Shown here: positions 1,970 through 60,443 of the stretch, piece by piece
How the letters are laid out: the number at the start of each line of letters is the position of its first letter
How positions within the stretch are numbered: the stretch's first letter is position 1
Assembly (NCBI GenBank): GCA_003489345.1
Contig: DNIT01000188.1
Location: 79-64,078, forward strand
Direction: 5' to 3'
Length of the DNA stretch: 64,000 nucleotides
Source: Pelotomaculum sp.
GTDB lineage: Bacteria; Bacillota; Desulfotomaculia; Desulfotomaculales; Pelotomaculaceae
The notes under the pieces: generated by a model
Database searches by the model: none
What the model was told of the DNA's origin: nothing
The model's input: only the letters and a program-made list of their open reading frames with translations
Translations under genes and position numbers: made by a program

Positions 1970-3422
1970 TGATATTGTGAATGTCACTTTGGAAATATCA
2001 CCGATGGCAGCCGTGCGCTCCGGGTTTAATCTTGGGCTCATTATCGGCAATAGCGCCGTTATTCCCCCAAGCGAAAGAGTAAGATTGTATTCCGGGTTAA
2101 CCGCAATGATCGAGGACGGATTTACGACAAGCGACCCGGAGTATTCAGCCGCGACGTTGTATTTCGGGCAAAATCCCAGACCGACCAGGCTTGCAGTTGG
2201 AAGATGGGGTCTCACTGACGGACCAGTGGTCCAAGCGGTCATGGCCTGCCGTGCGGCTAATTCAGAATGGTATGCCTGCACGGTATGCGGAGCGGAAAGC
2301 GAAGATGTCCTAGCCATTGCTTCGTATATTGAGGCTGCGGAACCAAAAAGCGCATTTTTCTATACAACTGCCGATACTGATGTTTTAACCGGTACCGCCT
2401 TGACTGCCGGATACGAAACAGGAGCTGCGGATCCATCCACTGATATTAGCGGCGGAACGGCGAATAAGTTTAAGATTGCGGTAGATGGTGACGCTTCCGA
2501 TCCTCCAGACTATCAGGGCGTCACACTTGCTTTGACGGGCCTCAATACCGGGAATCTCATAGCGGCTGCCATGCAGGAGGAAATTCGGGCCATTGGCGGC
2601 GCATATTCTGCTGTGACCGTTAGTTACGCCGACGGCGTTTACATCATAACCTCCGGGACGACAGGCTTACTGTCAAGAGTAAGGGTTGCAAATGGAGATA
2701 CGAACAACGTCGCTGCGGCACTGAAGATAGGCGCAGTCAATGGAGCCGTTGATACAGACGGCGCAGGCAGTATCATGTCTGATCTAAAAGAAAAACAATA
2801 CATGCGCACCTTGGGCCAATACAGTACCGTAACAGATGCAGCCGCCGCCATTTTAGGCTACGCCATGGGGGCCAATACCGGGGTTGCCAACAGCGCGTAT
2901 ACCCTTGCCTATAAGACAGAGGTTGGCGTTTCCACCGAGGACTTAACGCTAACCCAGGTAGCAACAATCAAGGGTCAAAACGGTAATGTCTACATCAGCC
3001 GAGGCAATACCTACAACCTGTTTGAGCAGGGCATCATGGCCGACGGCACGCCCTTTGACGAAGTAATCAACCTAGACATGCTGTCAAATGATATTCAGCT
3101 TGCATGCATGGACCTCCTGACTAGTGTCCGCAAGGTTCCGCAGACAGAGGACGGTGTTACCATGTTGATTGACGCCATCACTGGGCCTTGTGTTGACGCC
3201 AGGAATCGCGGTTTTATCGCCCCCGGCGTCTGGAAGGCAGAGCCGATCCTGACGCTTAATACGGGGGATGCCCTTTCGCAAGGGTTTTTGGTTCTGTCGG
3301 AGTCCATAGCAAGCCAGAGCGCATCCGACAGGTCGGCAAGAATTTCTCCGCCGATATATGTTCCAATCAAGTTAGCCGGAGCGATTGAGCACGTAAATAT
3401 CACCGTTAAGGTCAACCGATAG
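1950..3422 (+). CDS. Tail sheath protein (DUF3383 family)
   Basis: IVNV, PEY.AA..YFGQ.P.P..LAVGRW, KVPQT.DG and LAGAIEHV.I.V.V motifs. Confidence 0.9.
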   Translation: MATLPLSDIVNVTLEISPMAAVRSGFNLGLIIGNSAVIPPSERVRLYSGLTAMIEDGFTTSDPEYSAATLYFGQNPRPTRLAVGRWGLTDGPVVQAVMACRAANSEWYACTVCGAESEDVLAIASYIEAAEPKSAFFYTTADTDVLTGTALTAGYETGAADPSTDISGGTANKFKIAVDGDASDPPDYQGVTLALTGLNTGNLIAAAMQEEIRAIGGAYSAVTVSYADGVYIITSGTTGLLSRVRVANGDTNNVAAALKIGAVNGAVDTDGAGSIMSDLKEKQYMRTLGQYSTVTDAAAAILGYAMGANTGVANSAYTLAYKTEVGVSTEDLTLTQVATIKGQNGNVYISRGNTYNLFEQGIMADGTPFDEVINLDMLSNDIQLACMDLLTSVRKVPQTEDGVTMLIDAITGPCVDARNRGFIAPGVWKAEPILTLNTGDALSQGFLVLSESIASQSASDRSARISPPIYVPIKLAGAIEHVNITVKVNR

Positions 3423-3432
3423 GGAGGGATAA

Positions 3433-3864
3433 GTGATGTATACAACCTATAGCTTTGCAGACGTTTCGGTTGTCATTAAACACCCTTCCGTCGGTCGTAT
3501 TACGGCGAACGGTGAAGGACTCGGAAACATCAGCATTTCAATGGCGACCGACCGGACTGCTCATGATGTGGCGGCGGATGGGACCGTAATGGTATCGAAA
3601 ATACGCGGCAGAAACGGGACGGTCAGTATTGCTACTCAGCAATCGTCATCTTTAAACAGATGGTTAAAGAAATGGTATAACTACCTCGAAACCGCTGACG
3701 CTGATGAATGGGCGGATGCTACTATCACCATTAGATCAAATGTAATGGATGATCACCATACGATAACCGGCGTTTCCCCGCAGAAACAGCCTGACAGGCC
3801 GTATCAGGCGCAAGGGCAGCAAGTGACATGGACGCTGATGGCGGCAGATATTCAACAGGATTAA
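3433..3864 (+). CDS. Tail tube protein (DUF3277-like)
   Basis: Follows the sheath gene. YSF.DV, AADG.V.VS and Q.S..N.WL motifs. Confidence 0.85.
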   Translation: MMYTTYSFADVSVVIKHPSVGRITANGEGLGNISISMATDRTAHDVAADGTVMVSKIRGRNGTVSIATQQSSSLNRWLKKWYNYLETADADEWADATITIRSNVMDDHHTITGVSPQKQPDRPYQAQGQQVTWTLMAADIQQD

Positions 3865-6037: not shown

Positions 6038-6615
6038 TGGCTTTATCCCCCGTATTGCCTTATAGGCTGGAAGATGTACAACAACTTGTTTACGCTAAAA
6101 CAAATATAGGAGGCTATTTCTTTGACGCCTTTTTGCGCATGGAACATACAAGTTCGATTACTCTAACTGAGCACCCGATTCAATCCGGAGGGACGGCAGT
6201 TGATCATTCTTATCTTAACCCCTCCGTACTGATCATGGAAATAGGCATGTCTGATACGGCTAAAAGCCTTGTTGACGGTCAGTTCGCCGGAGGGTGGTCG
6301 CGGTCGGTAAGGGCATATGAAATATTGCTGGAGTTGCAAAAACAGCGGCTTCCGATTCAGGTTGTTACCAGACTAAAAGTATACGACAACATGTTGATTG
6401 AAACCATAGCCGCCCCGGATGACTATACTACGCTTTACGGCTTACGGGCTACGGTAACCCTTCGGGAAATATTCGTCGCTACGGTCAAAACGGTCAAGAT
6501 TAGTTCTAGGCCGCATGCGACGGATAGTACCCCAAGGGGAGATGTGCAGCCGGTAGAAACCAAAGAAGCCATTATTCTAGAAATGATTGATTTATACAAA
6601 AAGCTTTTTTTGTAA
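6037..6615 (+). CDS. Baseplate hub/tail-tube initiator (Dit-like)
   Basis: FDA....EH....T.HPIQ.G....DH, L.ELQ....P..V.T....Y.NMLI motifs. Confidence 0.8.
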   Translation: MALSPVLPYRLEDVQQLVYAKTNIGGYFFDAFLRMEHTSSITLTEHPIQSGGTAVDHSYLNPSVLIMEIGMSDTAKSLVDGQFAGGWSRSVRAYEILLELQKQRLPIQVVTRLKVYDNMLIETIAAPDDYTTLYGLRATVTLREIFVATVKTVKISSRPHATDSTPRGDVQPVETKEAIILEMIDLYKKLFL

Positions 6616-19559: not shown

Positions 19560-19697
19560 ATGCCCGTTGAAAAAAGAGAGAGACCAGTAATCAAGGGAAA
19601 TGATGCAAAACGGTTCTTAGAAGAAGAAAAGAAAGTTAATGAAAGGCTAAAAAATCACGTTGCCAAAAAACAACAAAATGCACCAAAAAGTAATTAA
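19560..19697 (+). CDS. Small antitoxin-like protein, copy 1 (45 aa)
   Basis: SD AAGAGGTG; RERPVIKGNDAKRFLEEEK is paralogous to the next ORF. Not in the ORF track. Confidence 0.7.
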   Translation: MPVEKRERPVIKGNDAKRFLEEEKKVNERLKNHVAKKQQNAPKSN

Positions 19698-19798
19698 ATA
19701 TCATTTGGTAAATAATAGCTTGATTAATGTATTTTTATGGTTATAATTAATTATACAATTAAATATAAAAAATTTTATAATGGAGGGAGGTGTGTGCG

Positions 19799-19975
19799 AT
19801 GGCAGTAAGTCTACGGGAAAGGCCCGTTCTTAGGGGCAAGGATGCTGAAAGATTCCTTTCCGAAGAAAAGAGGGTAGACGAATGCCGCGCACGATTAAGC
19901 AAGGGGAAGGGTCAAGATGCTGAACCCATACCGGTAAGAAATAAAAAGACTGTGCGTCTATGTCTAACAGAGTAA
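19799..19975 (+). CDS. Small antitoxin-like protein, copy 2 (58 aa)
   Basis: SD GGAGGGAGG; RERPVLRGKDAERFLSEEK; overlaps the GNAT start; promoter TTGATT-16-TATAAT at 19720-19747. Confidence 0.7.
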   Translation: MAVSLRERPVLRGKDAERFLSEEKRVDECRARLSKGKGQDAEPIPVRNKKTVRLCLTE

Positions 19976-20484
19976 ACCCTACATCACTCCGCTTTCATCC
20001 CATCGCAGAGCAAGATCACACATATTGTCAGAGTTTTTCTAGTGGCAACCAAAGCATGGACAGCTTTTTGAAAGAAGAAGCTTATTATAGGCATATATTA
20101 AGAGAAGGTAGCAGTACCTTGATAATGCTTAATAGTGAGTTGGTTGGTTATTTTACCTTACAAAGAAAAGATATTCAACTGCAGGATGGGGTAGCAGAAG
20201 TAAGGAGTAGTTTAGATATTGCGAGGTTGGCAGTTTCAGAGCCAATGCAAAACAAAGGCATTGGTGAAGCAACCATTAAGCTCATTAAAGAGATAGCTAA
20301 TATGATTAATGAGCGGTATATTACGCTTGATGCGCTTTTTGAAAAAAGAGAGTGGTATCGCAAGCTAGGGTTTAAACCGGCAATTGAGCAGGAGTATGAA
20401 ACAGAATGCGAAGATTCGCTTGTTTATATGTATCTTGATACCTACGATCCGAAACTCATAGAGGATTACTTTGAAAATCCATAG
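19960..20484 (+). CDS. GNAT acetyltransferase, TacT/AtaT-like toxin
   Basis: F.SGN..MD.FL, LVGYFTL, IARLAV....Q.KGIG, ITLDA and WY.KLGF motifs. Confidence 0.8.
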   Translation: MSNRVNPTSLRFHPIAEQDHTYCQSFSSGNQSMDSFLKEEAYYRHILREGSSTLIMLNSELVGYFTLQRKDIQLQDGVAEVRSSLDIARLAVSEPMQNKGIGEATIKLIKEIANMINERYITLDALFEKREWYRKLGFKPAIEQEYETECEDSLVYMYLDTYDPKLIEDYFENP

Positions 20485-20523
20485 ACCGCCTCCGGGCGGT
20501 TTTTCTTTGCAATCAAATATCCC

Positions 20524-20826
20524 TCACTTTGGCTTCAGCTCAAACCTTCCACAACTTTGTGTTTCCGGATCGCCCCCCTTAAGAGCGTCCTGCAACCCTT
20601 CAAGCCCAATCAGTTTAACGATCTCCATTACCGGGACAACCGGGGGAATGCGTTTTTCCATGTTTCCATATGCCTTGATACTAACTACACAGCCATATTT
20701 TACCTCTGTTTTTCCTTTAATGGGGACAAAAAATTTACAATGCTTGCAGCGGTGAACTGCCTTCTGTCGCATATCGGGGAGATACATCCGGTGCTTCTCC
20801 CACAAAACATTACTTTTATCTGCCAT
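20524..20826 (-). CDS. YolD-like partner of the Y-family polymerase, with a Cys-rich C-terminus
   Basis: N.LWE..RM.LP start resembles YolD-like proteins; overlaps the polymerase 3' end; C..C plus two more Cys. Confidence 0.55.
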   Translation of the reverse strand: MADKSNVLWEKHRMYLPDMRQKAVHRCKHCKFFVPIKGKTEVKYGCVVSIKAYGNMEKRIPPVVPVMEIVKLIGLEGLQDALKGGDPETQSCGRFELKPK

Positions 20827-22006
20827 ACTTCAAACTGTCCTCCGTGAGTGATATGCCCCTGAAAATTGCGCTTTCGCCAAATCGATCCCGTATAGCGTCA
20901 CAAGCTTTGACCATTTTCTCCTGACGCTCTTCCCAACCGAAAAGGTCAAACTGCTGGTGTTCCTTCTTGACGAGATTGCTGAACGTCACGCCAACAAGCC
21001 TTGTCGGCCATGATTCATTCCAGTGTTTCGACAGAAGTCTGCAGGCCGTTTGGTAGATATCGTCGGGAAGATCAGTATACTCCCTCATAGTCATTGCCCT
21101 AGATAAACAATTGAACTGCGTATCCCGAAGTGTCAAAAAAACCGTTCGTCCTACATAACCGCCCTGGCGGACCCGCCTTGATACCATCTCACTTAGTTCT
21201 AAGATAACCACTTTGATCTTCTCAAAGCCCCGAAGGTCACGCGGAAGAGTTCTCTGTTGTCCGATGCTTTTGGATGTGTCCAAAGATGTGGGAGTGACAG
21301 GAGAATGGTCTATCCCTTGGGCGCAATACCAGAGCATTTCACCATTTTTCCCCCAGCGTTTTTTTAATATCTCTACCGGAAAACTTGCTAGGTCCCCAAT
21401 TGTATGGATGTTAAAGCGGTGCAAGTGGCGTTCATATCTGGGACCTATTCCGAACAACTCCCTAACGGGCTTGTCATAAAAAGCTTTTCTGTAATCCTCC
21501 ACCGTTTTCAATATGGTCAAGCCGTTTGGTTTCTGTAGGCCGGCTGCCATTTTTGCGATCAATTTGTTCGGGCCGATACCTATGCTGCACATTATCCCGA
21601 CCTCATTCCGGATTCTCTCTTTTATTCTTATGGCGATTTCTAAAGGCGTGCCGAATAAGTGAATGACACCAGTCAGATCCATAAAAGCCTCATCAATGGA
21701 AAACGGCTCAACTAGGTCCGTGAAGTCCCGCATGATCTTAAGAATCCGGGTTGAGTATTCAACATAAAGCGAATAGTCAGGCTTGAAAAAGAACGCATCC
21801 GGGCATAACCGTTTCGCTTCCCAAAGCGCCATGCCGGTTTTGATCCCAACCGCCTTGGCCGGATAGGACGCAGCCAGAACAATACCGGTACGCCTCTCCG
21901 GATCGCCGGCAACTATCACCTCTTTGCCTTGCAGCTCTGGTTGCTCGGCGATATGGCAGGATGCGAAAAAGCTATTGGCATCGGCAAGCAGTATGACTCG
22001 TTTCAT
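20816..22006 (-). CDS. Y-family error-prone DNA polymerase (DinB/UmuC/UvrX-like)
   Basis: D.NSFFAS, AASY.AK..G, FSIDEAF.D, NK..AKMA...KP.G and V..LFGIG motifs. Confidence 0.95.
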   Translation of the reverse strand: MKRVILLADANSFFASCHIAEQPELQGKEVIVAGDPERRTGIVLAASYPAKAVGIKTGMALWEAKRLCPDAFFFKPDYSLYVEYSTRILKIMRDFTDLVEPFSIDEAFMDLTGVIHLFGTPLEIAIRIKERIRNEVGIMCSIGIGPNKLIAKMAAGLQKPNGLTILKTVEDYRKAFYDKPVRELFGIGPRYERHLHRFNIHTIGDLASFPVEILKKRWGKNGEMLWYCAQGIDHSPVTPTSLDTSKSIGQQRTLPRDLRGFEKIKVVILELSEMVSRRVRQGGYVGRTVFLTLRDTQFNCLSRAMTMREYTDLPDDIYQTACRLLSKHWNESWPTRLVGVTFSNLVKKEHQQFDLFGWEERQEKMVKACDAIRDRFGESAIFRGISLTEDSLKYGR

Positions 22007-22028
22007 AGGATCACCCTCTTATATCCTC

Positions 22029-22076
22029 AAACATGTGTTTGGTGGTAATTATATGGTGTATTCTTTCATTCATCAA
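22029..22076 (-). promoter_or_regulatory. Sigma-A promoter and LexA-like box for the polymerase
   Basis: TTGATG-17-TATAAT (22076-22048) followed by AAAC-N4-GTTT at 22029-22040, a variant of GAAC-N4-GTTC. Confidence 0.75.
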
Positions 22077-22124
22077 CAGGTATATCTTGGATTGTATTTG
22101 GTAGGCTACAGTGAGCAGAGATAT

Positions 22125-22175
22125 TTCACGAATACGAGAAAAATATCTTGACTATTCACGTATTCGTGATACAAT
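22125..22175 (+). promoter_or_regulatory. Promoter with two TTCACG-N4-CGTGAA-type operators
   Basis: TTGACT-16-TACAAT at 22148-22175; TTCACGAATACGAGAA at 22125-22140 and TTCACGTATTCGTGAT at 22155-22170. Confidence 0.75.
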
Positions 22176-22206
22176 AGAACCATAAAGAGGAAGGGGTGCA
22201 GTAAAA

Positions 22207-22605
22207 ATGAAATACGCCTACAAAACCCGCTACGGCAGCCCTGAAGCCGCAAAAGTAAAGGCCGCAGGAGCCAAATGGAATCCGGACATGAAACTCTGGC
22301 TCTCCGAAACCCCAGTTGATGGACTGGAAGCGGTACAACCGAATCATACATACGTTTGGAAAATGTACAATGAAAAGAATGGACAACCAGCCACCCGCAC
22401 GGTCAACAACCTGCGGATGTATGACCCTGAGAAAATTCCGGATGAAGCCGTCGCTGGACTCATCGGCCATGTCAACGATGGAACCTTCCTGGGGGCCTGC
22501 TGCGTAGAGGCGATCAAGCTCTATACGGAGACCAGGAAGCGCGGCCTGGACACCCAATATTTCTGGTCTACCCCTGATTGGGAAGACAAACTCAAGGAGG
22601 AATAA
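22207..22605 (+). CDS. Hypothetical protein (anti-defence/Acr candidate by context)
   Basis: Strong SD; VKAAGAKWNP..KLW resembles DUF5710-type small domains; first gene of an operator-controlled operon. Confidence 0.65.
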   Translation: MKYAYKTRYGSPEAAKVKAAGAKWNPDMKLWLSETPVDGLEAVQPNHTYVWKMYNEKNGQPATRTVNNLRMYDPEKIPDEAVAGLIGHVNDGTFLGACCVEAIKLYTETRKRGLDTQYFWSTPDWEDKLKEE

Positions 22606-22608
22606 CCG

Positions 22609-23088
22609 GTGATAAAAGAAAAGATTCGAGCCGGAATAAATAAAGCCACCCCTCCGATGGTGACATTCGCCGAAAACGAGGCTGGAAAGACCAGGCTGGC
22701 GCAGTATCTCATCTCCGGCATGCTTGCCAAGATAGAAGCCGGATTAGACCTGGACGCTATAGATTATGATGTTATTGTTGCGGCCCGAATAGAGAATGGC
22801 ATCATAGATGCCCTGAAGCTGCGCAGGGGTGAAAACCCTGACGCAGGCGGGCTGTTGAATTGGCTGGATGCCTGCAGCCTGCCGGTGGAGTACAATTTCC
22901 CTTGGGAGCAAACCAAAAAAGAGGTGATGACGATCCAGGAAGCCGCGCGCCTCTGGGATCAGGAAACCAGCACGATACGAAAAGCCTGCCTTGCTGGTAG
23001 GTTCACAGAAGAAGAAGCATGGAAATCTGGCGGCACCTGGTTGGTCACCGCCGTTGGTATGGAGAGGTTATATGGGAAAAAACAATGA
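22609..23088 (+). CDS. Protein with a C-terminal helix-turn-helix (Aca-like autoregulator candidate)
   Basis: VMT..EAA.LW....STIRKAC..GRF...EA.KSG.TWLVT..GMERLYG. Confidence 0.75.
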   Translation: MIKEKIRAGINKATPPMVTFAENEAGKTRLAQYLISGMLAKIEAGLDLDAIDYDVIVAARIENGIIDALKLRRGENPDAGGLLNWLDACSLPVEYNFPWEQTKKEVMTIQEAARLWDQETSTIRKACLAGRFTEEEAWKSGGTWLVTAVGMERLYGKKQ

Positions 23089-23108
23089 CCCCGGCAAAAG
23101 CCTGGGTC
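23087..23108. terminator. Hairpin terminator shared by convergent units
   Basis: GACCCCGGC-AAAA-GCCTGGGTC (one mismatch), followed by ATTGTTTTTT on the minus strand. Confidence 0.6.
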
Positions 23109-23110
23109 TC

Positions 23111-23173
23111 TCCTTATAGGTAGGCTATCGTAAAATCATACACGTTTCAATTCCCTTCGGGCACACTACAGGG
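23111..23173 (-). CRISPR. Isolated crRNA-like unit: degenerate repeat, 11-16 nt spacer, truncated repeat
   Basis: Minus strand reads CCCTGTAGTGTGCCCGAAGGGAATTGAAAC, GTGTATGATTTTACGA, TAGCCTACCTATAAGGA. Both flanks match the 30-nt clostridial repeat type GTTT.TAGCCTACCTATAAGGAATTGAAAC. No cas genes in the window. Confidence 0.75.
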
Positions 23174-23176
23174 TTA

Positions 23177-23205
23177 ATTATATCTTCTTTCTGTTTGCAG
23201 GACAA
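23177..23205 (-). promoter_or_regulatory. Sigma-A promoter of the crRNA-like RNA
   Basis: TTGTCC-17-TATAAT; predicted start near 23169, inside the 5' end of repeat 1. Confidence 0.75.
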
Positions 23206-23315
23206 CCCCGGCTTGTGCAGGTGCTGGCTGGCGCTGTTATGTGTGTGGGGTGGTGGGCGGTGTAGTATCTACCACATCGCAGACGTCCGCTATTTATAAT
23301 ATATACCGAACACAT
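23178..23315 (-). CDS. Hypothetical 45-aa Cys/His-rich peptide
   Basis: SD GAGGAGGG 6 nt before ATG; MCSVYIINSGRLRCGRYYTAHHPTHITAPASTCTSRGCPANRKKI. Not in the ORF track. Confidence 0.5.
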   Translation of the reverse strand: MCSVYIINSGRLRCGRYYTAHHPTHITAPASTCTSRGCPANRKKI

Positions 23316-23393
23316 AAAAATCCCTCCTCTGCTGCAGGATTTTACAAGATATTGCAGAATAAATCAGCATAATTTTCTTTGGAGGGGTATAAA

Positions 23394-23669
23394 ATGGAGG
23401 ATAAAAAACCTATACGGATATACTGTAATCGTGTTAGTATTGGATTAAGCACATTCGATATCACCCTTGCTCTTGCCTCTTCCTTTAAGGGTGGAGAGCC
23501 AGACCCGGAAGATATTGTAGCAGAAGTCATTATGAGCCCGCAACACGCAAAAGCATTTGCGGTTGCACTGGGCAATAATATTAGAGATTATGAAAAGATT
23601 TATGGTGATATTAATTTAAATCCTAATCAATCCGCTTTAGAAGAAATTACGAAGCAACAGAATGATTAG
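23394..23669 (+). CDS. DUF3467-like protein
   Basis: Y.N.V.I..S.FDI.L and V.MSPQHAK.F...L..NI..YE..YG.I motifs. Confidence 0.75.
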   Translation: MEDKKPIRIYCNRVSIGLSTFDITLALASSFKGGEPDPEDIVAEVIMSPQHAKAFAVALGNNIRDYEKIYGDINLNPNQSALEEITKQQND

Positions 23670-23684
23670 ATCCGAGGTGGGCTT

Positions 23685-24020
23685 ATGTTTACGACAAAAG
23701 ATCCACTCGGCAGGAATGTAGTGTTGAAGGCAAGTACATGGAATGTTCATATCGTAAAAGGCCACAATGAAATGTATAAACAAGAAAATTTAGTAAGAAA
23801 AGTAATCGAAAGGCCAGCGTTCATCTTGAAAGACAGGGATTCAGATGACAGAGATAATTATTTTGATCTTTGCCATCATCCCAAAAACGGCTCTCTCTCA
23901 ATTCTGAAAGTGGTTGTAGAGTTTTCTGATAGCACTGGTGATGTGGTTACCGCATATCCTATTAAAAACACCATCACTCAAGCAACCACAGTAAGGGGTG
24001 TAGTCTATGAGCGCCCGTAG
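23685..24020 (+). CDS. BECR/RelE-like nuclease toxin candidate
   Basis: W..HI..GH.EM, I..P..I, LKVVVE and VVTAY motifs; sits upstream of DUF2283. Confidence 0.65.
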   Translation: MFTTKDPLGRNVVLKASTWNVHIVKGHNEMYKQENLVRKVIERPAFILKDRDSDDRDNYFDLCHHPKNGSLSILKVVVEFSDSTGDVVTAYPIKNTITQATTVRGVVYERP

Positions 24021-24249
24021 GAGAAAGCTTACCCTGAATTACGACAAAGAGCATGATGTTATGTATGTGTCTTTAGGGGCACCTAAGCCGTCATATTGTG
24101 ACGATGATATTGAGGGGGTGCTTATTCGGCGTTCCCTGGAAAGCAATAGACTATCCGGCGTTACGATAATGGACTTTTCCAGGAAAACCAAAGAGCAACT
24201 AAAGCGGATAATCCCGTTTAACTTGGATATAAGCGAACTGTATAGATAA
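24007..24249 (+). CDS. DUF2283 family protein (putative antitoxin)
   Basis: YD.E.DVMYV.L and GV.IR.......GVTI.DFS motifs. Confidence 0.8.
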   Translation: MSARRRKLTLNYDKEHDVMYVSLGAPKPSYCDDDIEGVLIRRSLESNRLSGVTIMDFSRKTKEQLKRIIPFNLDISELYR

Positions 24250-24281
24250 TGCTAAGTTAAAATAAACCAAAAGAATGCGAC

Positions 24282-24307
24282 AGCCCGGCGGTAGCCGGGC
24301 TTTGTTT
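24282..24307 (+). terminator. Intrinsic terminator
   Basis: AGCCCGGC-GGTA-GCCGGGCT followed by TTGTTT. Confidence 0.7.
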
Positions 24308-58319: not shown

Positions 58320-60443
58320 ATGGCTGAATTTATTAATTTATGGTATCAATTAAGTATATCTGAACAAGGCGATATTGCTATAAAAGATGCTACTGGAAAT
58401 AATATTTGTGCTATGTCATATTCCTCTATATATGGAGTAATGGCTAATGGCGAATCCCCTATGTTAACCGCAAATAAAAACATTGCAAAATTGCGTGATG
58501 TGGGTATTTTTCAGGTAGGAGATACCGTTGAAATTTGCACAAAGAAAATTAATGATGAAATTTTACACACTACTACAATTACAGCAATAGACCCTGTGGC
58601 ATTAACAATAACCTTTGACCCTCCAACGCCTTCCGATTTTAAAATACCGTTATGGGCTTCACAAAGTCCAGTTGGTATAGTTGTGAGGAAGGTTACTGAC
58701 AGTATTAATGGTTTTACTTCTGTTGCCATATCGGAAAATACCACCGAGAACGGAAAAGATTTGACGATTGTTGGGGAGACACCAAAAGCAAGCGTATCTG
58801 TAACTTTTAAATGTAGTAATTCCAGTCCTAAAATAGAAATTGAAACCAACGCTACCTATAAGGATACAGTAAAGGTAATAAATGAATCATTGATTTTAAC
58901 CTTTATTGATAATGTGTCTGCTGTTTTTAGGAAAAATAGAAAGACACATACTCAAAATTTTGCTGATAAATATTGGTTAGGTAGTCAAGGAGTAAAATTT
59001 GGGGCAGATAGTAGGACTTGTTTTTTATACAACACACCTAATATTTGCTCCTTAGAACTAGAAACATTAAATAAAAAGTTAATTGTTAACCTTGATGATT
59101 ACCGCGACCATAGGTTTAGAAGATTAGACCAATATCGTGTTGGTTATTCAGAAGGTATGTGGATTGATAGAAACGCAGCAGAGTTTGACGTTTTAGATGT
59201 TAGGGTTAATTCTTTTTCATTATGGGTTGGGATGCCTATTAATAAAGACATTCCCCGCTTAATGATAAATCCAGACAAGTATTTATCAACTATGATACTG
59301 GATTCACATGCTGATTCATCGCCTGTGGCACAGCAAAGAGCGGTATTCTATGGACACCAAGATATCACTAACGGCGATAATGCAGCCAGTGGTTTTGTAG
59401 GAGTAGGATTACCTGTTACCCAGACATTCTTCTATGGCGGTGTTGATTATTCTTTGCGTGGTACGACCTGGGAAACTGACCCCGATATATTAACGGATGC
59501 TTTTAATGTTGCTTTAGATCTGTATCAGCGTGGTTTTGATATTGGTCTACATTCAATCTTTTTTACTACTGGTGATGCCCCAGGTCAAACACCGATACCA
59601 GACAGTAGAAGAACACAAGGTAAAAATGAGGCAATGCCTTTTATGAAACAGCATTTCGATTCTACAACATGGATAGACCACTCACCACAGCAAAACGCAC
59701 TAGATCAATGTACGGAGGGTTTAATACCGGAATCACCGTCTTATATGAAAGATTTATGGGAGCAATACGGAGTAAGGTATTTTTGGAATCATAGCAGCGA
59801 AGATATAAACTATTCTGGAATTGATTTGTTGTGTGGTGATAATGACGAATGGCGAAATCCTTTATATTGGCAGCATCCTACTGTTACAGATAATTTTTAT
59901 ACTAGAGCTGTGCAATATATTACTGCTGGTGATCAGGCTGGATGGGCTATTAACTATAGTGAGGATAATCTACAAAACTTAATAAATAATTGGGGTGTAA
60001 ATATTCATCACAATTATTTATGTATGGATGGGCATGGAACAATAATAAAACAAGCTGACGGTAAATGGGTTATTGATCCTGTCTTTGAAAGCGTTTTGCA
60101 ACGATTAAAAGGTTATAAAGATAAGGGGCAACTTAATGTAACTACGGTTAGAAAATTAATGGATTATTGGATTCAGTTGGAAAATATAGAGTTTAATTAT
60201 AATAGCGACGGTATTGATGTTACAAATAATAATGATGAAACAATAAATGGATTATCTTTAACGGTTGCTTCTCCTTATTATGCTATAGTCATAGATGATA
60301 GTCGAGTGGTTCGCAATCCACATCTAGGAAATGCTATATTCAGCTTTGATTTAGCTGCACATGAAACTAAAAAAATCAAATTGGAACAAGAGCAACCATA
60401 TGTTTACAGTGAACCAGTGAAATTTGTAAATAATCCCTGGTAA
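58320..60443 (+). CDS. Large protein with a polysaccharide deacetylase/NodB-like barrel
   Basis: LDSHAD, GFDIGLHS, WIDH and HHNY motifs; AT-rich. Confidence 0.6.
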   Translation: MAEFINLWYQLSISEQGDIAIKDATGNNICAMSYSSIYGVMANGESPMLTANKNIAKLRDVGIFQVGDTVEICTKKINDEILHTTTITAIDPVALTITFDPPTPSDFKIPLWASQSPVGIVVRKVTDSINGFTSVAISENTTENGKDLTIVGETPKASVSVTFKCSNSSPKIEIETNATYKDTVKVINESLILTFIDNVSAVFRKNRKTHTQNFADKYWLGSQGVKFGADSRTCFLYNTPNICSLELETLNKKLIVNLDDYRDHRFRRLDQYRVGYSEGMWIDRNAAEFDVLDVRVNSFSLWVGMPINKDIPRLMINPDKYLSTMILDSHADSSPVAQQRAVFYGHQDITNGDNAASGFVGVGLPVTQTFFYGGVDYSLRGTTWETDPDILTDAFNVALDLYQRGFDIGLHSIFFTTGDAPGQTPIPDSRRTQGKNEAMPFMKQHFDSTTWIDHSPQQNALDQCTEGLIPESPSYMKDLWEQYGVRYFWNHSSEDINYSGIDLLCGDNDEWRNPLYWQHPTVTDNFYTRAVQYITAGDQAGWAINYSEDNLQNLINNWGVNIHHNYLCMDGHGTIIKQADGKWVIDPVFESVLQRLKGYKDKGQLNVTTVRKLMDYWIQLENIEFNYNSDGIDVTNNNDETINGLSLTVASPYYAIVIDDSRVVRNPHLGNAIFSFDLAAHETKKIKLEQEQPYVYSEPVKFVNNPW

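What the first reader, a model, noticed from the sequence alone, without database searches (positions are those of the whole stretch)
23087..23205. Stand-alone crRNA mimic with a very short guide: candidate RNA anti-CRISPR or Cascade-redirecting RNA
Seen on the minus strand: promoter TTGTCC-17-TATAAT; a 30-nt degenerate repeat ending in the intact 8-nt handle ATTGAAAC; 11-16 nt of spacer (GTGTATGATTT-TACGA); TAGCCTACCTATAAGGA; then a terminator. Known: these flanks match the 30-nt clostridial repeat type GTTT.TAGCCTACCTATAAGGAATTGAAAC, usually type I-B. The second copy stops where Cas6 would cut (after GGA), so the layout copies a mature crRNA. The phage has no cas genes. Inference: the guide is far too short for interference. 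It could sequester Cas5/6/7 in an aberrant complex (Racr-like), or steer host Cascade to repress a promoter by seed pairing (CreA/CreR-like). A two-repeat, ~11-nt-guide design for this repeat family may be uncharacterised.
Basis: partly seen in the sequence, partly recalled or inferred. Interest (0 to 1): 0.9.

Follow-up and report, generated by a model that had tools for sequence, protein, structure and literature searches.

The report
Phage guide RNA targets cas6 promoter
A temperate phage carries a tiny imitation of a CRISPR guide whose first 11 bases match, beside the right recognition signal, the predicted promoter region between its host's cas6 and cas4 genes, so it likely turns the host's own CRISPR complex into a repressor of guide maturation or new-memory acquisition, a variant of a recently described phage trick.

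Summary
Observation confirmed, except that the terminator is non-canonical. The element copies the host's type I-B repeat (array on contig C12) and the layout of the host's own cas-regulating mini-arrays. Key result: guide positions 1-11 match C89:9797-9787 perfectly, 5'-flanked by TTA, in the 180-bp gap between the host's divergent cas6 and cas4-cas1-cas2 genes. It is the only TTA + full-seed site in the 3.77-Mb assembly. Shuffled guides hit cas intergenic DNA at 0.00037 and the genome at 0.12. TTA flanks the target of 15 of 17 host mini-arrays examined (2 had no target). A host spacer matches this phage 36/36, tying phage to host. Best reading: a Cracr-like RNA (bioRxiv 10.1101/2024.10.29.618823) that likely redirects host Cascade to repress this promoter and competes for Cas proteins. 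Unlike published BLAST-found cases, its guide copies no host CreR, and it aims at the separate cas6/adaptation promoter, not the Cascade operon. No RNA data, no homologue in other phages, no start sites mapped. This scan noted Cracr-like RNAs of other subtypes on other DNA before.

The parts
23200..23205 (-). -35 hexamer TTGTCC of a sigma-70-type promoter (predicted)
   Evidence: 10 of 12 consensus, 17-nt spacing
23177..23182 (-). -10 hexamer TATAAT; start site expected near 23170, inside the first repeat remnant (inferred)
23144..23173 (-). First degenerate repeat: 20 of 30 identical to the host I-B repeat; 3-bp stem CCC-GAA-GGG in place of CCT-ATA-AGG (a change on both sides that keeps the pair); ends in the 8-nt handle
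23144..23151 (-). 8-nt 5' handle ATTGAAAC, identical to the host repeat's last 8 nt
23133..23143 (-). 11-nt guide GTGTATGATTT; 11 of 11 match to host C89:9797-9787 behind TTA, between divergent cas6 and cas4; positions 12-15 mismatch, 16-19 match
23111..23132 (-). Second repeat remnant (predicted 22-nt 3' handle): positions 6-22 match the host repeat 16 of 17, CCT-ATA-AGG stem intact, identity ends at the expected Cas6 cut
23111..23151 (-). Predicted mature RNA, 41 nt (8 + 11 + 22)
   Evidence: inference and the 8-nt/22-nt handle rule shown for CreA in PMC8501985
23077..23108 (-). GC-rich hairpin (23108-23087) and a delayed T6 run (23082-23077): plausible, non-canonical intrinsic terminator
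   Evidence: not listed by the scanner

Best explanation
The element is a phage gene for a crRNA-like RNA whose 11-nt guide matches a TTA-flanked site between the host's divergent cas6 and cas4-cas1-cas2 genes, and it likely works as a Cracr-type anti-CRISPR: predicted to be cut by host Cas6 into a ~41-nt RNA, loaded into the host's type I-B (Cas8b-CXXC/Cst2) Cascade and parked on that promoter region without cutting. Shown: layout, repeat match, kept stem, PAM, unique target, phage-host link. Inferred: transcription, Cas6 processing, Cascade loading, repression. The likely result is less Cas6 (fewer mature crRNAs for both Cst2-type Cascade operons, C89 and C200) and/or less Cas4-Cas1-Cas2 (less spacer acquisition), plus competition with immune crRNAs for Cascade. 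Because the RNA would need Cas6 itself, it would act as a self-limiting damper, not an off switch.
For: (1) Host has the matching system: array repeat on C12; I-B genes on C89 and C200. (2) Guide 1-11 matches C89:9797-9787, 67 bp upstream of the predicted cas6 start and 100 bp from the cas4 start. It is the only TTA + 10/10 seed site in the assembly; the one other 10/10 site with a TTN flank has TTG and lies at the 3' end of an open frame on C212. Shuffled guides hit the 1,306 bp of cas intergenic DNA at 0.00037. (3) PAM: in PAM-blind searches, 15 of 17 host mini-arrays of this repeat family in cas loci had a best match of at least 9/10 seed positions nearby, and all 15 had TTA. TTA is also the tested PAM of the P. 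thermoglucosidasius I-B system, where an 11-nt guide represses and does not cut (PMC10551041, passages). (4) Same anatomy as those host regulators: all 17 lack the handle in the second repeat, and 16 of 17 keep a 3-bp stem before the first handle; the phage keeps it by a two-sided change. (5) Seed pairing at 1-5 and 7-11 is what CreA uses to repress (PMC8501985). (6) Phage and host belong together: a spacer of the host's C55 array matches window 3398-3433 36 of 36 with a TCA flank, and phage and cas contigs have like depth in run X1, 7.65 and 6.8-7.6 (X1 may be the source of this DNA). (7) Only two cas6 genes are in the assembly, and the other sits with a different repeat. (8) Precedent: Cracr preprint and Shmakov et al..
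Against: Single phage-host pair: no second phage with the element (L067 is the same sequence), so no guide-target covariation. The target is not conserved upstream of the cas6 homologues of 13 relatives (best 8/10). A random guide of this make-up finds some TTA + 10/10 site in the genome 12% of the time, and the cas intergenic set was drawn after the hit was seen. Pairing is 11 contiguous nt, shorter than most host regulators (13-15 of 15 scored positions in 14 of 15). Start sites are unmapped: the scanner found no cas6-direction promoter at its threshold and three cas4-direction ones, one overlapping the site, so which gene is hit is open. The spacer that attacks this phage belongs to the other I-B system (C55), whose repeat the element does not mimic; none of the 4 readable C12 spacers matches the phage. 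The assembly is 78% complete, so another cas6 may be missing.
Confidence: 0.74

Rival explanations
1. Pure decoy (Racr-like): the RNA soaks up Cas6/Cas7/Cas5 or whole Cascade, and the promoter match is incidental or too short to hold.
For: Strong predicted promoter and intact Cas6 stems. In the tested Cracrs, competition explains much of the effect and repression is only about 30%. Pairing stops at 11 nt.
Against: Perfect seed with the system's PAM in cas intergenic DNA, 0.00037 by shuffle. Racrs are solitary repeats forming complexes without Cas5/Cas8 (PMC10651486); this has two remnants and a full 5' handle. Seed-mutated Cracrs lost their anti-CRISPR effect.
Confidence: 0.12
2. Adaptation-only brake: Cascade on this site blocks only the cas4-cas1-cas2 direction and leaves cas6 alone, so a resident prophage limits new self-targeting spacers. 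This shares the mechanism of the best explanation but not its cas6 part.
For: All 3 promoter-like sites the scanner found in the gap point toward cas4; one has its -10 inside the target, two would place the target 16-30 bp downstream as a roadblock. The host already holds a perfect spacer against the phage in its other system.
Against: A TG-n-TAAATT element lies 51 bp before cas6, about where TGnTAAACT-like elements lie in relatives, which puts the target on its -35 region; a second candidate (TTTATT-17-TATAGT) has the target as its spacer (read by eye).
Confidence: 0.07
3. Relic: a host regulatory mini-array captured by recombination that has drifted and does nothing.
For: The guide shares a 9-nt run, out of register, with the host's C89 regulatory spacer (shuffle p 0.002), which suggests descent from it. 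No copy in other phages.
Against: Own promoter and hairpin are intact, the stem is kept by a two-sided change, and the guide gained a perfect match to a different cas promoter region.
Confidence: 0.05
4. Inter-virus weapon or phage self-regulation through host Cascade.
For: Viral mini-arrays that target other viruses are known (cited in PMC10120712).
Against: 11-16 nt is below the 27 nt needed for cutting in a related I-B system. No TTN-flanked site of 9/10 or better in the phage contig. Other viruses were not searched, since 14-mers match by chance.
Confidence: 0.02

Closest known systems
[quoted passage not shown]
   Same: Virus-borne, cas-less, own promoter and terminator, degenerate repeat(s), short guide with PAM-proximal match to a host cas promoter (CracrVA1 has 10 consecutive nt); guide shorter than the co-resident host regulators (11 against 15 and 16 nt). 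I-B targets are among their predictions.
   Different: Tested cases are V-A, I-E and I-F; none is I-B in the parts read. Their BLAST screen needed at least 9 PAM-proximal nt shared with a host CreR/CreA; this guide shares at most 5 of 11 with any of 17 host regulators. Tested targets are effector or toxin promoters; here it is the separate cas6/cas4 promoter region. No Acr partner identified.
Type I-B phage mini-arrays of Clostridium perfringens and Fusobacterium phages, Shmakov et al., PMC10120712 (read: section 26 and passages; 2 held supplement files searched)
   Same: Subtype I-B, phage-borne two-repeat unit, shortened spacer, predicted target upstream of cas6 with a I-B PAM.
   Different: Those are near-copies of a host mini-array that sits upstream of cas6 and shares 15 nt of spacer. 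Here the host's regulators sit upstream of cas8 and aim there; the cas6/cas4 gap has no mini-array and no host guide for it was found. That cas6 leads the effector operon in those hosts is recalled, not checked.
Host CreR/CreA regulatory mini-CRISPRs (bioRxiv 10.1101/2023.03.10.532045 and PMC8501985; passages read)
   Same: First remnant keeps the 8-nt handle, second keeps the first 22 nt; seed pairing 1-5 and 7-11; repression without cutting.
   Different: They lie inside cas loci and act in cis on the effector or a toxin promoter; this one is on a phage and would act in trans.
Racr RNAs (solitary repeat units), Camara-Wilpert et al., PMC10651486 (passages read)
   Same: Phage RNA mimicking the host repeat behind its own promoter; competition for Cas proteins is likely shared.
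   Different: Racrs are single repeats with no target; RacrIF1 forms a Cas6-Cas7 complex without Cas5/Cas8. This element has two remnants and a PAM-flanked target.

Membership tests
Cracr | Encoded by a virus or plasmid, outside any cas locus | tested here: met
   Head, lysis and integrase genes in the window; no hit of 13 Cas proteins
Cracr | Repeat-like sequence matching the host repeat, with processing elements kept | tested here: met
   20/30 and 16/17 identity, handle and stems kept
Cracr | Guide with PAM-proximal, partial match to a host cas or creT promoter, flanked by the cognate PAM | tested here: met
   11/11 behind TTA in the cas6/cas4 gap; TTA in 15 of 15 host targets found. The promoter itself is predicted, not mapped
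Cracr | Guide copies a host CreR/CreA spacer (at least 9 PAM-proximal nt): the filter of the preprint's first screen; its second screen did not use it | tested here: not met
   At most 5 of 11 positions shared with 17 host guides; only an out-of-register 9-nt run with the C89 guide. Hence filed as a Cracr-like variant
Cracr | Cas-dependent maturation, promoter binding, repression and anti-CRISPR activity | not testable with these tools
   Needs bench work; no RNA run listed
Racr / SRU | Solitary repeat unit without a targeting guide | tested here: not met
   Two remnants and a PAM-flanked target
Racr / SRU | Aberrant Cas subcomplex lacking Cas5 and Cas8 | not testable with these tools
   Needs pull-down
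Host CreR/CreA | Located in the cas locus it regulates | tested here: not met
   On the phage contig; target on C89
Host CreR/CreA | Two divergently degenerated repeats giving 8-nt and 22-nt handles | tested here: met
   Sequence layout; processing itself untested
Interfering viral mini-array | Full-length spacer able to direct cutting | tested here: not met
   11-16 nt against 35-39 nt in the host array and a 27-nt threshold in a related system

The most novel reading that the evidence does not exclude
A phage has re-aimed a captured CRISPR autoregulatory RNA at a promoter the host itself does not guard: instead of tightening Cascade's own feedback loop, it spares Cascade and uses it to throttle, from one site, both crRNA maturation (the one Cas6 found for two Cascade operons) and spacer acquisition (cas4-cas1-cas2). 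This would be a type I-B Cracr with a new target class, invisible to searches seeded with host regulators, implying many more hidden cases.
Probability: 0.4. Interest if true: 0.65.

Novelty: new variant of a known kind. Interest (0 to 1): 0.45.

Why it matters
The class is known, so this is no new kind of system. Its value: a clean I-B case with phage, cognate Cas system, host regulators and target in one assembly, where the texts read give only predictions for I-B. If repression is confirmed, viral guide mimics are not limited to copying host autoregulators: they can be re-aimed at crRNA processing or adaptation genes. Searches should then match viral guides to all cas intergenic DNA, not only to CreR spacers. 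It also gives a natural 11-nt-guide scaffold for I-B CRISPRi in anaerobic Bacillota.

Tried and rejected
Rfam: 0 matches in the window. Homologues of the element: viral contigs, strict pattern 0; loose pattern 14 loci, none homologous, most inside open frames and likely chance; genome contigs 15 loci and metagenomes 18 loci were host regulators, ordinary arrays, or the same sequence (L067); 36 family and 162 class genomes gave no further prophage case that I could identify (of the 37 places, 30 came with loci and 18 new ones were read); blastn of window 22000-24300 against 50,697 phage records: no match. Neighbour genes as Acr/Aca markers: the 159-aa HTH_59 protein had no viral relative, and none of 10 HTH_59 loci in the order carried a handle motif. 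The 132-aa protein has 7 homologues, no Pfam, PHROG or NCBIfam hit, a confident model (pLDDT 87) without a PDB match, and its one viral locus has no such unit: no Acr claim is made. Target conservation upstream of cas6 in 13 relatives: not found. Expression: no RNA holder listed. Attachment site: no att-like match to host contigs, and one contig of X1 runs across the integrase region, so integration is not shown. Two stand-alone mini-arrays elsewhere (L108, L040): no exact TTA + seed target in their genomes. First spacer of the host C89 mini-array: no TTA + 10/10 target. The guide and repeat motifs were not found in the 2 held supplement files of PMC10120712; its larger tables and the Cracr preprint's Table S2 (219 candidates, some I-B) could not be seen and may hold like cases. 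Three paper searches listed no report of a phage guide aimed at a stand-alone cas6 or cas4 promoter; subscription journals are mostly not covered.

Full report
Observation. The minus strand reads as described: TTGTCC-17-TATAAT (23205-23177), a 30-nt repeat remnant ending in ATTGAAAC (23173-23144), GTGTATGATTT-TACGA, TAGCCTACCTATAAGGA (23127-23111), a GC hairpin (23108-23087) and a T6 run four bases later. The promoter scores 10 of 12. The terminator is not listed by the scanner and its fold is not significant against shuffles, so it is plausible only. The layout of handle plus repeat core arose 0 times in 300 simulated windows. The window is a temperate phage genome: head, lysis, repressor and serine integrase genes, no hit of 13 host Cas proteins, no Rfam match.

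The host has the matching system. The assembly (78% complete, 234 contigs) holds an array on C12 with the repeat GTTTTTAGTCTACCTATAAGGAATTGAAAC. C89 carries cas8b (CXXC)-cas7 (Cst2)-cas5-cas3, then, further on, cas6 divergent from cas4-cas1 (and a cas2-like frame read by eye); C200 carries a second Cst2-type effector operon; C55 carries a separate I-B system with another repeat. Only two cas6 genes were found, on C89 and C55. That the C89 Cas6 serves the C12 repeat and both Cst2-type operons is inferred from this. The phage's first remnant is 20 of 30 identical to the C12 repeat; the second matches positions 6-22 at 16 of 17 and then stops, where Cas6 is expected to cut. This predicts a 41-nt RNA with 8-nt and 22-nt handles, the rule shown for CreA (PMC8501985, passages).

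The guide has a target. Positions 1-11 match C89:9797-9787 exactly, with TTA on the 5' side, 67 bp before the predicted cas6 start and 100 bp from the cas4 start. Positions 12-15 mismatch and 16-19 match. Of 14 TTN-flanked sites with at least 9 of 10 seed positions, two are 10/10: this one, and a TTG site at the 3' end of an open frame on C212. Shuffled guides hit the four cas intergenic regions (1,306 bp) at 0.00037 and the whole genome at 0.12.

TTA is this system's PAM by an independent count. I collected 17 distinct host mini-arrays of this repeat family lying in cas loci (2 in this genome, 15 in relatives; duplicates, ordinary arrays and loci outside cas genes left out). A PAM-blind search for each guide's best nearby match gave at least 9 of 10 seed positions in 15, always behind TTA; 2 gave no target. 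All 17 lack the handle in the second repeat, have 10-21-nt spacers, and 16 keep a 3-bp stem before the first handle while its loop varies. The phage keeps that stem as CCC-GAA-GGG. In P. thermoglucosidasius I-B the tested PAM is TTA, an 11-nt guide represses, and cutting needs 27 nt (PMC10551041, passages); that this system is a close relative is my recall, not tested.

Phage and host belong together. A C55 spacer matches window 3398-3433 at 36 of 36 with a TCA flank, the same flank as the target of C55's own mini-array. In run X1, which may be the source of this DNA, phage and cas contigs have like depth. Integration is not shown: no att-like match, and one contig spans the integrase region.

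Mechanism. Shown: anatomy, repeat match, stem, PAM, unique target, host link. Inferred: the RNA is made, cut by Cas6, loaded into Cascade and bound at the site without Cas3 cutting, lowering transcription and competing with crRNAs. Which gene falls is open. The scanner finds three cas4-direction promoter-like sites, one overlapping the target, and none toward cas6. By eye, two cas6 candidates put the target on the -35 region or in the spacer. Both directions may be hit. The RNA would need Cas6, so repression of cas6 would limit itself.

Against. One phage-host pair only; no other phage with the element, so no covariation. The site is not conserved before cas6 in 13 relatives. Pairing is shorter than in most host regulators. 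The spacer that attacks the phage is from the system the element does not mimic, and none of 4 readable C12 spacers hits it. No neighbour could be called an Acr.

Comparison. It works like a Cracr (bioRxiv 10.1101/2024.10.29.618823; introduction, results and discussion read), whose tested members are V-A, I-E and I-F, with I-B only predicted. Shmakov et al. (PMC10120712, section 26) report I-B phage mini-arrays that copy a host unit upstream of cas6. This one differs: its guide shares at most 5 of 11 positions with any of 17 host guides, so the CreR-seeded screen would likely miss it, and the host's own regulators aim at the cas8 leaders, not at this gap. A 9-nt out-of-register run shared with the host's C89 guide (p 0.002) hints that it descends from that regulator and was re-aimed. 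It is not a Racr in the strict sense (PMC10651486, passages). Supplementary tables that may list like cases could not be seen. Earlier notes of this scan report Cracr-like RNAs of types I-C, I-E and I-G in other genomes; I did not test them and had reached this reading before.

Verdict. Real feature; Cracr-like, new variant of a known kind; confidence in the mechanism 0.74; interest 0.45.

Noticed in passing
window 3398-3433; G000:C55:153-188: A spacer of the host's second I-B array matches the phage 36 of 36 with a TCA flank, while phage and host contigs have like depth in X1. If the phage is resident, that system must be blocked or broken; its cas3 and cas5 contain assembly gaps, so this could not be judged. 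A protein Acr may be somewhere in the phage.
   Followed up: partly
window 58835-58864 (+): ATTGAAAC followed 5 nt later by 13 nt identical to the repeat core, inside a 707-aa open frame and in frame (EIETNATYKD). No room for a guide; probably chance, but an odd one.
   Followed up: partly
G000:C89:6613-6725 and 6471-6490 (L004): Host three-remnant mini-array upstream of cas8. Its second guide pairs with the TTA-flanked site in the cas8 leader at 9/10 seed positions in register, but at 15 of 17 if one guide base is bulged: the site looks one T short, a possible escape from autorepression. Its first guide has no target found.
   Followed up: partly
G000:C200:6188-6255 and G000:C55:9665-9745: The other two I-B effector loci also carry CreR-type mini-arrays with targets in their own leaders (TTA and TCA flanks).
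   Followed up: yes
L051 (viral contig), match at 872-915 minus: Possible second phage-borne I-B mini-array beside an amidase gene: handle, ~15-nt spacer, second remnant cut after the stem; first stem imperfect; host genome not available.
   Followed up: partly
L061 3001-3047; L040 3001-3035; L108 238-280: Other short repeat units outside cas loci: a viral multi-repeat mini-array (L061) and two chromosomal units with a near-complete first repeat, a short spacer and a hairpin (L040 beside a WYL-like frame read by eye; L108). No exact target for L040 or L108.
   Followed up: partly
window 22207-23088 (+): Two-gene unit convergent on the RNA: a 132-aa protein of a small unnamed family (7 homologues, no fold match) and a 159-aa protein with a C-terminal HTH_59 domain. 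The layout recalls acr-aca pairs, but nothing tested supports that.
   Followed up: partly
window 23394-24249 (+) and 19560-22006: Accessory genes around the element: DUF3467, an unnamed 111-aa frame and DUF2283 (toxin-antitoxin-like by recall), a GNAT acetyltransferase with a small upstream frame, and a Y-family (ImpB/MucB/SamB) polymerase.
   Followed up: no
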